This document shows, piece by piece, positions 53,521-54,413 of a stretch of 64,000 nucleotides of DNA. The stretch comes from an uncultured Actinomycetota bacterium (GTDB taxonomy: Bacteria > Actinomycetota > Actinomycetes > Mycobacteriales > CADCTP01). The notes below the pieces were generated by a model. The model made no database searches and was not told where the DNA came from. It saw nothing but the letters and a program-made list of their open reading frames with translations. Location of the stretch: NCBI GenBank assembly GCA_963714145.1, contig OY970235.1:7571983-7635982 (forward strand), read 5' to 3'. Within the stretch, counting starts at the first letter, position 1, and the number at the start of each line of letters is the position of its first letter. A program made the position numbers and the translations under genes.

Positions 53521-53688
53521 ATGCATGTTCGTGGACGCGGCTGTCCGGCCGCAATGACAGCGATTCGCACCTGGGTGGTCGCCGTGGACCGGTGCCTGGC
53601 GACCATCGCCCTAACCGCTGTGGCGCTCGTCACACTATTGCTCGCGCTCACGCTGTTCTACCCGCGTGAGCTCCCGGCGGACGAGTAG
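53521..53688 (+). CDS. 55-aa small membrane protein (below the track's size cut-off)
   Basis: Own translation: MHVRGRGCPAAMTAIRTWVVAVDRCLATIALTAVALVTLLLALTLFYPRELPADE*. GGAGG lies 8 nt upstream of the ATG at 53521. The ORF ends 30 nt before the TIR gene. Confidence 0.4.
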   Translation: MHVRGRGCPAAMTAIRTWVVAVDRCLATIALTAVALVTLLLALTLFYPRELPADE

Positions 53689-53717
53689 TAGGCGCGGAGC
53701 GGAGGGGGCGGGATTCG

Positions 53718-54413
53718 GTGTCCAGCGAGATCTTCGTCAATTATCGGCGGGCCGACAGCGGCAGTTACGGGGCGCTGCTCTACGTCGATTTGGTCCGCTA
53801 CTTCGGTGTGGGCCGGGTCTTCATGGACAGCATGTCGATCCCGGCCGGCAGCGATTTCACCGTAGAGCTGCTGGCGCGGGTGCGGCGGACGCAGGTGGTG
53901 CTGGCGGTCATCGGGCCGGCCTGGCTGACCGCGACGAACGCCCGGGGTGACCGGCTGATCTTCGATCCCGACGACTGGGTGCGGCGTGAGCTGGTGACGG
54001 CGTTCGAGGCCGGCGTGCGGGTGATTCCGGTGCTGACCGATGGCGCCGTGCTGCCGACCGGTGCGGAGCTGCCGGATGACATCGCCGCGTTGGCGCGTTG
54101 CCAGTACCGGTGGCTGCGCGCCGGCGATGTGGTCGCCGACCTGGACCGGCTGCACCGTGATCTTGCCGCTGCCGCGCCGGAACTCGCGGTGCGCCGCCGC
54201 CGCGGCCACCAGCCCAGGGTGGTGGCGATCTGGCTGCCCGGCCGGCGGGCGGTCCGGTGGGTGGCGCACTGGCTGGTCGCCATGGGGGTCGCGTCGGCCG
54301 CGGTGGCGCAGTGCCTGCCGGCGCGGAACCGGCTGCGGAACCGGGTGTGGCACAGGTCATACTTCGCCCGGGAGCACCGCCAAACCCCACCGCGTTGCCG
54401 TAGACAAAGCTGA
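53718..54413 (+). CDS. TIR-domain protein with a hydrophobic C-terminal segment
   Basis: IFVNYRRADSGSYGALLYVDL..., VVLAVIGPAWL and DDWVRRELVTAFEAGVRVIPVL fit the bacterial TIR_2 pattern, including the W..E glutamate. The C-terminal segment is VRWVAHWLVAMGVASAAVAQCL. GTG at 53718 follows GGAGGGGG. Confidence 0.75.
   Translation: MSSEIFVNYRRADSGSYGALLYVDLVRYFGVGRVFMDSMSIPAGSDFTVELLARVRRTQVVLAVIGPAWLTATNARGDRLIFDPDDWVRRELVTAFEAGVRVIPVLTDGAVLPTGAELPDDIAALARCQYRWLRAGDVVADLDRLHRDLAAAAPELAVRRRRGHQPRVVAIWLPGRRAVRWVAHWLVAMGVASAAVAQCLPARNRLRNRVWHRSYFAREHRQTPPRCRRQS

What the first reader, a model, noticed from the sequence alone, without database searches (positions are those of the whole stretch)
53521..54413. 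Small-TM protein + TIR-domain protein with a hydrophobic tail: candidate two-gene NADase-type defence cassette
The 231-aa product has the bacterial TIR pattern (IFVNYRRADS..., VLAVIGPAWL, DDWVRRELVTAFE), including the conserved glutamate used by TIR NADases in Thoeris-like and other antiphage systems. Instead of a sensor domain it ends in a hydrophobic/basic segment.

Thirty nt upstream, a 55-aa ORF encodes a single-TM peptide and has its own GGAGG. It is too short for the supplied ORF track.

Inference: this is a minimal membrane-associated TIR effector with a small partner. No ThsA-like or STING-like gene, and no other known partner, is nearby.
Basis: partly seen in the sequence, partly recalled or inferred. 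Interest (0 to 1): 0.55.

Follow-up and report, generated by a model that had tools for sequence, protein, structure and literature searches.

The report
SARM1-like TIR gene with small membrane partner
A soil actinobacterium carries, right next to its main heat-shock (dnaK) operon, a conserved two-gene unit: a tiny membrane protein and a short enzyme-type TIR protein that looks able to destroy NAD+. It is plausibly a minimal cell-suicide or defence module, but its function has not been tested.

Summary
ORF 53718-54413 (231 aa) is a true TIR_2 protein. Its closest solved relatives by sequence and fold are SARM1 TIR NADase domains. The catalytic Glu (E91 = SARM1 E642), W87 and the BB-loop Gly (G44 = G601) are invariant across 121 homologs.

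The 55-aa ORF at 53521-53688 is a real single-pass membrane protein gene. It has a conserved ATG and GGAGG, and its hydrophobicity is kept beyond neutral expectation. It forms an orphan family (9 clusters among 5.8 billion) found only directly upstream of this TIR.

The pair is syntenic in about 10 metagenomic loci of one uncultured Mycobacteriales lineage. It always lies between a divergent XRE-DUF5753/DUF397 pair and dnaK-grpE-dnaJ-hspR-clpB. This is not a defence island, and no ThsA, STING or other known partner is nearby.

The TIR tail is very basic with only a marginally hydrophobic helix. Its last ~20 codons overlap conserved dnaK upstream DNA. One relative has lost both the small protein's membrane character and the tail helix.

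The closest paralogs include N-terminal TIRs of NB-ARC-TPR proteins.

Verdict: a real, lineage-restricted variant of the minimal TIR NADase theme. A defence role is plausible but unproven. Moderate interest.

The parts
53231..53260 (+). Candidate promoter, block A (TTGCAC-N18-TACCGT), in the 720-nt XRE/small-ORF intergenic region
   Evidence: Both hexamers are conserved in most orthologous loci (alignment; TTGCAC positions). The generic sigma-70 scan found nothing here. The assignment is inference only.
53407..53415 (+). Invariant CCCTCTGGT box, complementary to the small ORF's Shine-Dalgarno sequence
   Evidence: RNAalifold pairs it with CCGGAGG. All pairs are invariant, so there is no covariation. 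Single-sequence fold z-score is +0.44, so there is no thermodynamic support. Unverified.
53425..53500 (+). Conserved leader, block B (CTGACTGTTGCACACTCC...CGGACGGGCGGTCGGGCAGGTCGGGATTG)
   Evidence: Nearly invariant in 7 loci. In L091, which has no small ORF, it lies 79 nt upstream of the TIR start. No Rfam family matches.
53508..53512 (+). Shine-Dalgarno GGAGG of the small ORF
   Evidence: Read directly from the sequence. Conserved as CCGGAGG(AGG) in all orthologs with an intact small ORF.
53521..53688 (+). 55-aa single-pass membrane protein gene. N-terminal basic segment, invariant I15 R16 W18 D23 R24 C25, transmembrane segment at about residues 25-46, acidic C-terminus.
   Evidence: It is an orphan family: 9 clusters, all 49-55 aa, every one whose contig could be read lying next to this TIR clade.
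53701..53708 (+). Shine-Dalgarno GGAGGGGG of the TIR gene
   Evidence: Read directly from the sequence.
53718..54413 (+). 231-aa TIR protein gene (whole ORF)
53718..54182 (+). SARM1-like TIR domain (aa 1 to about 155) with Y9 R10, G44 (BB loop), W87 and E91
   Evidence: Pfam TIR_2. Profile against PDB gives SARM1 at E 3.4e-14. AF2 pLDDT is above 85 for residues 1-160. Foldseek finds SARM1 TIR at TMt 0.86. dN/dS 0.20-0.44, p<=6e-4.
54183..54329 (+). Arg-rich tail containing the Ala/Val-rich helix (aa 177-198, nt 54246-54311)
   Evidence: Conserved motif IWLPGRRAxRWVAHWxVAxxVASAAVxQCxP in orthologs. KD 1.4-2.3. pLDDT 50-60. dN/dS 0.33-0.9.
54330..54413 (+). 3' end of the TIR ORF overlapping the conserved dnaK upstream region
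   Evidence: GC3 falls here. dN/dS is about neutral for aa 205 to the end. The DNA block AGGTCAyAC...GGAGCA is retained in L090, where it lies downstream of the stop codon.
54408..54430 (.). Inverted repeat AGCTGAG-N9-CTCAGCT overlapping the TIR stop codon. It resembles the HspR operator (HAIR) only partly.
   Evidence: Conserved in 6 loci. It does not reach 3 mismatches to CTTGAGT-N7-ACTCAAG. The assignment to HspR rests on my own knowledge of the consensus and is not tested.
54452..54465 (.). Palindrome TCTCAGATCTGAGA overlapping the dnaK ribosome-binding site
51849..52800 (-). Divergent XRE (HTH_31)-DUF5753 regulator gene, frameshifted in this window. A possible regulator of the cassette.
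51642..51863 (+). DUF397 small protein gene, partner of the XRE gene

Best explanation
This is a real two-gene operon.

Gene 1 encodes a 55-aa single-pass (N-in) membrane protein. Gene 2 encodes a 231-aa protein whose first ~155 residues form a catalytically competent, SARM1-type TIR NAD+ glycohydrolase domain. The remainder is an Arg-rich tail with one weakly hydrophobic helix.

Most likely mechanism (inferred, not shown): the TIR is held at the cytoplasmic face of the membrane through its tail together with the small protein. TIR NADases need self-association to build their composite active site. Clustering or release at the membrane, triggered by phage or envelope stress, would therefore switch on NAD+ cleavage. 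That would deplete NAD+ or produce ADPR-type products and cause growth arrest or abortive infection.

Shown here:
- TIR fold and active-site residues.
- Purifying selection on the TIR domain.
- Transmembrane character of the small protein maintained by selection.
- Strict co-occurrence and synteny of the pair.

Inferred: NADase activity, membrane tethering of the TIR, interaction of the two proteins, the trigger, and any antiphage role.
For: - TIR identity: TIR_2 above the gathering score. The family profile hits only SARM1/TIR-1 TIR domains in the PDB (E 3.4e-14). It aligns DWVrrE with SARM1 DWVHKE(642) and the BB-loop G with G601.
- Conserved residues: G44, W87 and E91 are invariant in 121 homologs.
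- Structure: the AF2 model is confident for the TIR domain. Its best structural match is the SARM1 TIR, TMt 0.86.
- Selection: TIR-domain dN/dS is 0.20-0.44, p<=6e-4.
- Small ORF: conserved ATG and SD, in-frame indels only, KD 2.5-3.0. Hydrophobicity is retained far beyond the neutral simulation.
- Specificity of the pair: the small-ORF family occurs only next to this TIR clade. A small hydrophobic upstream ORF is found in 0 of 76 paralog loci.
- Joint loss: in L090 the small ORF has lost its hydrophobicity and conserved residues, and the TIR tail has lost its helix.
- Family context: the nearest paralogs (57-63% identity) include N-terminal TIRs of NB-ARC-TPR/STAND proteins, a typical conflict-system architecture (PMC7159879).
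- Precedent: short TIR-only and two-protein TIR systems protect E. coli from phages and depend on the TIR active site (PMC11350192).
Against: - Genomic context: the locus is not in a defence island. The flanks are housekeeping genes and the dnaK operon, and no PADLOC family hits the neighbours.
- Inheritance: the cassette is vertically syntenic in one narrow lineage rather than patchy or mobile. It is not found in viral contigs.
- Base rate: only 12 of 32 tested E. coli TIR loci defended against phages (PMC11350192).
- Tail helix: it is marginal as a transmembrane segment, has basic flanks on both sides (against the positive-inside rule) and low pLDDT.
- Small-ORF substitutions: its dN/dS (0.5-0.9) is not significantly below 1.
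- Dependence is not strict: L091 has a hydrophobic tail helix but no small ORF.
- No biochemical data exist for any member.
Confidence: 0.4

Rival explanations
1. A stress-physiology module rather than antiviral defence. The TIR NADase and small membrane protein form a lineage-specific accessory of the heat-shock locus and/or of the divergent XRE-DUF5753/DUF397 regulators. On this reading they lower NAD+ or make an ADPR-type signal to enter dormancy under proteotoxic or envelope stress.
For: - Position: the cassette is invariably wedged between XRE-DUF5753/DUF397 and dnaK-grpE-dnaJ-hspR-clpB in all loci long enough to tell. None of the 79 paralog loci is next to dnaK.
- Shared DNA: the TIR stop codon lies inside conserved inverted-repeat DNA upstream of dnaK, with no terminator between the genes.
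- Regulatory region: a long conserved 5' region is shared with the divergent XRE gene.
- Known role of the neighbours: XRE-DUF397 pairs are pleiotropic regulators in Streptomyces (PMC10364602).
Against: - Synteny alone does not show co-regulation.
- The best HAIR-like match upstream of the small ORF has 3 mismatches and is expected by chance in 36% of shuffles.
- DnaK is 95-97% identical across loci while the TIR is only 62-78% identical. The TIR therefore evolves like an accessory or conflict gene.
- I found no precedent for a housekeeping bacterial TIR NADase in the literature searches.
Confidence: 0.25
2. The TIR is a stand-alone gene and the small ORF is not a protein partner. On this reading the small ORF acts in cis, as a translated leader (uORF) controlling TIR translation, or is an independent small membrane peptide of the type I toxin kind.
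For: - The small-ORF dN/dS is not significantly below 1.
- Only about 6 residues are invariant, clustered in IRxW..DRC.
- A conserved, possibly SD-sequestering leader precedes it.
- L091 has the TIR without any small ORF.
- Its size and hydrophobicity match type I toxins (own knowledge).
Against: - Transmembrane character is preserved against neutral expectation in 5 of 5 lineages. A pure cis-acting uORF would not need that.
- It has its own strong SD and lies 28-47 nt from the TIR start in all loci.
- It degenerates together with the tail helix in L090.
- No antisense RNA or Rfam element was detected.
Confidence: 0.2
3. A toxin-antitoxin-like addiction pair. The TIR NADase is the toxin and the small protein (or the neighbouring XRE-DUF397 pair) keeps it silent.
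For: - It is a compact two-gene operon with a potentially lethal enzyme.
- The adjacent HTH-DUF397 genes have been proposed to be TA-like (PMC7159879; NCBIfam weak antitoxin-type HTH hits).
- The XRE/DUF397 segment is a recombination patch between near-identical strains.
Against: - In Streptomyces the XRE-DUF397 pairs behaved as regulators, not as TA systems (abstracts of PMC10364602 and PMC6262351).
- A 55-aa membrane peptide is an unusual antitoxin for a cytosolic enzyme.
- In L090 the small ORF has degenerated while the TIR catalytic residues persist.
- In this window the XRE gene is frameshifted while the TIR is intact.
- The locus is chromosomal and stable, not on a mobile element.
Confidence: 0.1
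4. A decaying remnant. The gene is the N-terminal stump of a former TIR-NB-ARC-TPR gene, and the tail and small ORF are meaningless read-through sequence.
For: - The closest paralogs include TIR-NB-ARC-TPR proteins.
- The tail beyond aa 204 evolves about neutrally and overlaps dnaK regulatory DNA.
- Tail pLDDT is low.
Against: - The TIR domain is under clear purifying selection with all active-site residues kept.
- The gene is conserved in length and position across loci as far apart as 62% identity.
- The tail shows no similarity in any frame to the C-terminal regions of paralogs.
- Tail residues 161-204 show dN/dS 0.33-0.41 in three pairs.
- The small ORF's hydrophobicity is selected.
Confidence: 0.05

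Closest known systems
SARM1 / TIR-1 TIR domain (animal NAD+ hydrolase; e.g. PDB 6o0q, 6o0u, 7nak)
   Same: - Best sequence-profile match (E 3.4e-14) and best structural match (TMt 0.86, rmsd 2.0-2.7 A, about 26% identity).
- Catalytic Glu (E91 = E642), W87 = W638, Y9 R10 = Y568 R569, and BB-loop G44 = G601 are aligned and conserved.
   Different: - There are no ARM or SAM domains, so no known auto-inhibition or octamer scaffold.
- The protein is bacterial and 231 aa long, and has a basic/hydrophobic tail and a separate 55-aa membrane protein instead.
- Activity is untested.
E. coli minimal TIR antiphage systems TIR-I to TIR-IX (PMC11350192)
   Same: - They include short TIR-only single-gene systems and two-protein systems in which both genes are needed. 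Some have a transmembrane component.
- Defence depends on the TIR active site.
- They share the overall logic of a TIR without a classical sensor domain.
   Different: - No sequence-family relationship was tested here.
- Those systems come from Proteobacteria and Bacillota and are typically accessory.
- The partner here is an orphan 55-aa peptide. The locus is in a housekeeping context next to dnaK.
- No phenotype is known.
Thoeris ThsB (TIR) with ThsA
   Same: It has a stand-alone TIR protein with a catalytic Glu. Weak partial HMM hits were found to ThsB1 (E 1e-5) and to the type III ThcB4 (24 bits).
   Different: - Scores are far below the family cutoff (24 against 220 bits) and cover only about 70 residues.
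- No ThsA (SIR2-SLOG or Macro-TM) or any other signal receptor lies within about 12 kb.
Actinobacterial TIR-NB-ARC-TPR / TIR-STAND NLR-like conflict proteins (Kaur et al. 2020, PMC7159879)
   Same: - The TIR subfamily is the same, at 57-63% identity in the TIR domain (L006, L009, L015 and others).
- It is expanded to many copies per genome in Pseudonocardiaceae and Mycobacteriales MAGs.
   Different: This protein has no NTPase or repeat sensor. Its tail is unrelated to those regions. The paralogs have no small ORF.
TIR-TM-ectodomain paralogs (e.g. Lentzea L029 and L035, Actinophytocola L055)
   Same: Same TIR family (about 47-49% identity), with the TIR immediately followed by a hydrophobic helix. 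They are membrane-anchored TIR proteins.
   Different: - Those have a strong transmembrane helix (KD 2.5-2.9) and an extracytoplasmic domain of about 150 aa.
- They have no small upstream ORF and are not next to dnaK.
SpbK (Bacillus subtilis single-protein TIR abortive-infection system, PMC12847820)
   Same: It is a single TIR NADase protein that acts without a signalling partner and is activated by direct contact with a phage protein (abstract).
   Different: SpbK has a separate N-terminal recognition region and resides on a mobile element (ICEBs1). No homology was tested here.

Membership tests
Pfam TIR_2 (PF13676) | HMM score above the gathering threshold | tested here: met
   36.6 bits against a cutoff of 28, residues 5-113.
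Enzymatic (NADase-type) TIR domains, SARM1-like | Catalytic Glu in the WxxxE helix aligned with SARM1 E642 | tested here: met
   The profile-to-PDB alignment places DWVrrE on DWVHKE. E91 and W87 are invariant in 121 sequences.
Enzymatic (NADase-type) TIR domains, SARM1-like | TIR flavodoxin-like fold superposable on SARM1 TIR, with the BB-loop glycine | tested here: met
   AF2 pLDDT is above 85 for residues 1-160. Foldseek top 32 hits are all SARM1/TIR-1, with TMt up to 0.87. G44 aligns with G601 and is invariant.
Enzymatic (NADase-type) TIR domains, SARM1-like | NAD+ cleavage activity dependent on the Glu and on self-association | not testable with these tools
   This needs biochemistry.
Thoeris | ThsB family membership by curated HMM | tested here: not met
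   NCBIfam ThcB4 scores 24 bits against a cutoff of 220. PADLOC ThsB1 gives E 1e-5 over residues 4-73 only.
Thoeris | Adjacent ThsA effector (SIR2/SLOG or Macro/TM) | tested here: not met
   Neighbours within about 12 kb have housekeeping Pfam domains and no PADLOC hits.
Signal-activated TIR effectors (TIR-STING, TIR-SAVED, Pycsar TIR, SPARTA TIR-APAZ) | Fused or partnered nucleotide-sensor or Argonaute module | tested here: not met
   TIR_2 is the only domain found in the 231-aa protein. No such genes are nearby.
TIR-STAND / NLR-like (TIR-NB-ARC-TPR) | STAND NTPase plus repeat sensor in the same protein | tested here: not met
   The protein ends 59 nt before dnaK. The tail has no similarity to paralog NTPase regions. 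Paralogs L006, L015 and L081 do have these domains.
Defence-island / mobile defence gene | Clustering with known defence genes or mobile elements, with patchy distribution | tested here: not met
   Housekeeping flanks, no PADLOC neighbours, conserved synteny in about 10 loci, and absence from viral contigs.
Small single-pass membrane protein | Translated ORF with one strongly hydrophobic segment of about 20 aa, conserved across orthologs | tested here: met
   KD 2.5-3.0 and summed Hessa scale -1.0 to -4.3 kcal/mol. Retention exceeds neutral expectation. SD and ATG are conserved. Translation itself is not testable here.
Type I toxin-antitoxin | Antisense or overlapping regulatory RNA controlling a small hydrophobic toxin | tested here: inconclusive
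   No Rfam match was found. Promoters on the opposite strand were not identified. Transcript data are lacking.

The most novel reading that the evidence does not exclude
A SARM1-type NAD+ hydrolase has become physically and regulatorily embedded in the actinobacterial heat-shock locus. Its 3' end overlaps the dnaK/HspR control region, and a structured leader masks the small ORF's ribosome-binding site. On this reading the orphan 55-aa membrane protein senses envelope or proteotoxic stress (or phage-induced membrane damage). It then licenses TIR clustering through the basic/hydrophobic tail, coupling the chaperone response to NAD+ collapse and dormancy. This would be a bacterial analogue of SARM1's stress-triggered self-destruction, built from a previously undescribed two-protein membrane switch.
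Probability: 0.1. Interest if true: 0.7.

Novelty: new variant of a known kind. Interest (0 to 1): 0.4.

Why it matters
TIR NADases are a central, cross-kingdom cell-death and immune module. What activates the many sensor-less bacterial TIR proteins is largely unknown.

This cassette offers a very small, well-defined case: a 155-aa SARM1-like catalytic domain, a 75-aa tail and a 55-aa membrane protein. Natural variants are available in which the partner and the tail helix are lost together (L090) or the partner is absent (L091). That makes it directly testable whether a small membrane protein gates a TIR enzyme.

Its fixed position against the dnaK operon would also allow a test of whether NAD+ depletion is wired to the heat-shock response.

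If it proves to be just one more accessory TIR gene of an uncultured lineage, the impact is small.

Tried and rejected
- **Rfam on 52800-54600 at E<=1:** no match, so there is no known riboswitch or sRNA.
- **Structured-leader idea:** the alifold pairing of CCCTCTGG with the SD has no covariation, and the single-sequence fold is no more stable than shuffles (z = +0.44). It is kept only as an unverified note.
- **HAIR (HspR operator) search:** the only hit at <=3 mismatches is in leader block B and is expected by chance in 36% of shuffles. The dnaK-proximal repeat does not reach the threshold. HspR control is not claimed.
- **Generic sigma-70 promoter and terminator scan:** no promoter. One terminator-like site at 53202-53215, at chance level.
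- **Metagenome contig scan with the single protein:** it recovered only the two already-known 99% loci. The viral contig scan found nothing.
- **Remnant-of-NLR test:** tblastn of paralog C-terminal regions against the tail DNA in all frames gave only short noise hits.
- **Association of the XRE/DUF397 pair with the wider TIR family:** present only in the ortholog clade and one paralog locus (L023). It is therefore not a family-wide partner.
- **dN/dS as proof that the small ORF is coding:** not significant. It was replaced by a hydrophobicity-retention simulation.
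Full report
**1. What is in the sequence**

The window is 72.7% G+C. Around the finding it carries actinobacterial housekeeping genes:
- a class II aminoacyl-tRNA synthetase, an aminotransferase, a CCG/Fe-S oxidoreductase and an AIM24-family protein upstream;
- dnaK-grpE-dnaJ-hspR(MerR)-clpB downstream.

- The 55-aa ORF runs 53521-53688. Its ATG is preceded by GGAGG at 53508-53512, and its stop is a double TAG.
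- After 29 nt, the 231-aa ORF runs 53718-54413. It starts at a GTG preceded by GGAGGGGG at 53701-53708.
- Third-position G+C is 0.85-1.0 in the TIR frame from the start to about 54340. It is 0.75-0.88 in the small ORF's frame, with low second-position G+C in both. That is the coding signature of a high-GC genome.

**2. The TIR protein**

It passes Pfam TIR_2 (36.6 bits, cutoff 28). It gives only weak, partial hits to Thoeris ThsB-type models.

A protein search found 351 homologs. In an alignment of 121 of them, G44, R56, W69, W87, E91, A95, V102 and P104 are invariant.

A profile of that alignment, searched against all PDB sequences, finds only SARM1 and C. elegans TIR-1 TIR domains (best E 3.4e-14).
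- The printed alignment puts the family's DWVrrE on SARM1 DWVHKE.
- Counting from the full-length chain, this makes E91 = E642, W87 = W638, Y9 R10 = Y568 R569, and the invariant G44 = BB-loop G601.
- The roles of those SARM1 residues are from my own knowledge of the SARM1 literature.

An AlphaFold2 model built on the 121-sequence alignment has pLDDT above 85 for residues 1-160 and 50-60 for the tail. Foldseek against the PDB returns SARM1/TIR-1 TIR domains as the top 32 hits (target-normalised TM up to 0.87, rmsd 2.0-2.7 A). Plant TIRs, AbTir and SPARTA follow far behind.

The relevant Glu is E91. The second Glu in the quoted motif (E97) is Ala in the 99%-identical ortholog.

**3. The tail**

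Orthologs at 62-99% identity keep a recognisable tail, IWLPGRRAxRWVAHWxVAxxVASAAVxQCxP...VWxRSYF..REH. It has three properties that weaken a simple membrane-anchor reading.
- It is extremely basic: 13-18 Arg/Lys against 1-6 Asp/Glu.
- Its helix (aa 177-198 in the model) is only marginally hydrophobic. Kyte-Doolittle values are 1.4-2.3, and the summed Hessa scale is +1.2 to +4.8 kcal/mol.
- It has basic flanks on both sides.

Nei-Gojobori dN/dS by segment:

| Segment | dN/dS | Significance |
|---|---|---|
| TIR domain, aa 1-160 | 0.20-0.44 | p<=6e-4 in all six pairs |
| Tail, aa 161-204 | 0.33-0.9 | nominally significant in three pairs |
| Tail, aa 205 to end | about 1 | not different from neutral |

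The last segment coincides with the fall in GC3. It also coincides with a DNA block upstream of dnaK that stays conserved in L090, where it lies after the stop codon. So the last ~20 codons of the ORF run into the dnaK upstream regulatory region. Their apparent protein conservation is at least partly DNA conservation.

An inverted repeat (54408-54430) spans the TIR stop codon. A palindrome (54452-54465) overlaps the dnaK ribosome-binding site. Neither reaches a 3-mismatch match to the HspR operator consensus, so I do not claim HspR binding.

The tail has no similarity in any frame to the C-terminal regions of paralogs.

**4. The small ORF**

Gene callers found a 49-55-aa ORF at the same place in every orthologous contig. 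Across sequences only 45-85% identical, the following are conserved:
- the ATG;
- the CCGGAGG(AGG) ribosome-binding site;
- the residues I15 R16 W18 D23 R24 C25;
- a strongly hydrophobic segment of about 20 aa (KD 2.5-3.0; Hessa -1.0 to -4.3);
- an acidic C-terminus.

Length differences are whole codons.

dN/dS (0.5-0.9) does not by itself prove coding. I therefore simulated unconstrained substitutions at the observed divergence. The ORF stayed open with KD>=2.5 in only 0.9-2.6% of trials per lineage, yet all five diverged lineages show it. The simulation treats lineages as independent, which overstates the joint significance.

A profile search of 5.8 billion protein clusters found just nine members. 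All are 49-55 aa, and most come from contigs already identified as TIR/dnaK loci. An HMM of the family finds nothing in 76 paralog loci or elsewhere in the window. No paralog locus has any small hydrophobic ORF directly upstream.

The small protein is thus an orphan family strictly tied to this TIR clade.

**5. Natural variants**

- L090 has a TIR 67% identical that is also directly upstream of dnaK. It keeps the leader and an open 54-codon frame. That frame has lost the conserved W, D and C residues and all hydrophobicity (KD 0.7). Its TIR tail has lost the helix (KD 0.07), while the TIR catalytic motif persists.
- L091 (64% identical, also between the XRE gene and dnaK) has no small ORF. Leader block B lies 79 nt before the TIR start, and the tail still has a hydrophobic helix but is not basic.

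The joint loss in L090 supports a functional link between the small protein and the tail. L091 shows the link is not absolute.

**6. Context and distribution**

All loci long enough to judge show AIM24 / DUF397 / XRE(HTH_31)-DUF5753 (opposite strand) / small ORF / TIR / dnaK operon.
- dnaK adjacency is confined to this clade: none of the 79 paralog loci has it.
- Among 185,579 species-representative genomes, only one carries the full-length ortholog, an uncultured 'Mycobacteriales bacterium' MAG.
- DnaK is 95-97% identical among loci whose TIRs are 62-78% identical. The TIR therefore evolves fast, like an accessory gene, yet stays in place.
- No PADLOC family hits the neighbours within about 12 kb, apart from a weak generic HTH match.
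- No relative is found in viral contigs.

The TIR subfamily itself is heavily expanded in Pseudonocardiaceae and Mycobacteriales MAGs, with six or more copies in single assemblies. It occurs in several forms:
- as the N-terminal domain of NB-ARC-TPR and other STAND proteins;
- as TIR-TM-ectodomain proteins;
- as TIR with a tail of about 100 aa in Streptomyces;
- as short stand-alone TIRs.

This matches the NLR-like conflict systems described for multicellular actinobacteria (PMC7159879).

**7. Upstream region**

The 720-nt spacer between the XRE start (about 52800 by comparison with L001) and the small ORF is about 79% identical across loci. It contains two nearly invariant blocks, each with TTGCAC (53231 and 53433), and an invariant CCCTCTGGT complementary to the small ORF's ribosome-binding site.

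There is no Rfam match, no covariation and no excess folding stability. These features are leads, not findings.

**8. Interpretation**

I consider the following established:
- a real operon;
- a SARM1-type TIR domain with an intact active site under purifying selection;
- a genuine, selected, single-pass membrane partner;
- a lineage-restricted, syntenic location.

NADase activity, membrane tethering through the tail, interaction of the two proteins and the biological role are all inferred.

The best-supported mechanism is a membrane-proximal TIR NADase whose self-association is gated by the small protein and tail, leading to NAD+ loss and growth arrest. A defence or abortive-infection role is the leading reading. 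It rests on the TIR clade's NLR-type relatives and on the E. coli precedent of sensor-less and two-protein TIR systems (PMC11350192).

Three points keep that confidence modest:
- the non-island, dnaK-adjacent context;
- only 12 of 32 tested E. coli TIR loci defended;
- there is no experimental data for any member.

The main rival is a stress-physiology role tied to the heat-shock locus or to the divergent XRE-DUF397 regulators.

**9. Novelty and score**

TIR NADases, minimal TIR defence genes and TIR-TM proteins are all known. What is new is this particular architecture: a SARM1-like TIR, a basic/hydrophobic tail and an orphan 55-aa membrane protein wedged against the dnaK control region. My literature searches found no description of it.

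I rate it a new variant of a known kind, with interest 0.4.

Noticed in passing
window 51849-52800 (- strand), frameshift near 52500-52515: The divergent XRE(HTH_31)-DUF5753 regulator is split into two frames (52408-53043 and 51849-52541). The cause is one extra base relative to the intact 315-aa gene of the near-identical contig L001 (...gagtctcggttctccggagttc... against ...gagcttggttcacccgagttc...). It may be a real pseudogene or an assembly error.
   Followed up: partly
window 51389-52600 against L001 1369-2500: The window and contig L001 are 99-100% identical on both sides (AIM24; and from about 52600 through the TIR and dnaK). They are only 50-78% identical across DUF397 and the C-terminal two-thirds of the XRE gene. 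This is a recombination patch or strain chimera that ends close to the frameshift.
   Followed up: partly
window 54330-54472: The dnaK upstream region is highly conserved in all related loci. It contains an inverted repeat AGCTGAG-N9-CTCAGCT (54408-54430) spanning the TIR stop codon and a perfect palindrome TCTCAGATCTGAGA (54452-54465) over the dnaK ribosome-binding site. Only 59 nt separate the TIR stop from the dnaK ATG, and there is no terminator between them.
   Followed up: partly
window 52801-53520: The 720-nt intergenic region has lower G+C and no called gene in any locus, yet is about 79% conserved. It contains two TTGCAC-containing invariant blocks (53231, 53433) and an invariant CCCTCTGGT (53407-53415) complementary to the small ORF's SD. 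There is no Rfam match and no covariation.
   Followed up: partly
L006-L084 (genome loci), e.g. DATBCR01 (SMAG_U5790) and DATILL01 (SMAG_U15743): The same TIR subfamily is present in six or more copies per MAG in uncultured Pseudonocardiaceae and Mycobacteriales. Most are N-terminal domains of NB-ARC-TPR or other STAND proteins. One architecture (L016) joins the TIR to a P-loop-like region and a multi-pass membrane C-terminus.
   Followed up: partly
L029 3995-5005, L035 3995-5056, L055 4001-5038, L076, L040: This is a distinct TIR-TM-ectodomain family in Lentzea, Actinophytocola and related MAGs. A TIR is followed by a strong transmembrane helix, a Ser/Thr/Pro-rich linker and a conserved Cys-containing extracytoplasmic domain of about 130 aa with no Pfam match. 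The layout resembles a receptor-like bacterial TIR protein.
   Followed up: no
L090 480-701 and 701-1351: In this relative, the small ORF frame is still open but has lost all hydrophobicity and the conserved W, D and C residues. The TIR tail has lost its helix, while the catalytic TIR motif is intact. It is a natural double-loss variant.
   Followed up: yes
small ORF C-terminus and TIR tail (window 53660-53685; 54300-54320): Most orthologs have a Cys just after each hydrophobic helix: ...LCPDE in the small protein and ...QC(L/V)P in the TIR tail. In this window the small protein has Tyr instead (FYPRE, against FCPRE in P0122). A possible paired-Cys feature; not examined further.
   Followed up: no
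window 42279-43592 and 43283-44740 (+): The mechanically listed ORFs for the class II aminoacyl-tRNA synthetase and the following aminotransferase overlap by about 300 nt. The aminotransferase start is probably further downstream.
   Followed up: no
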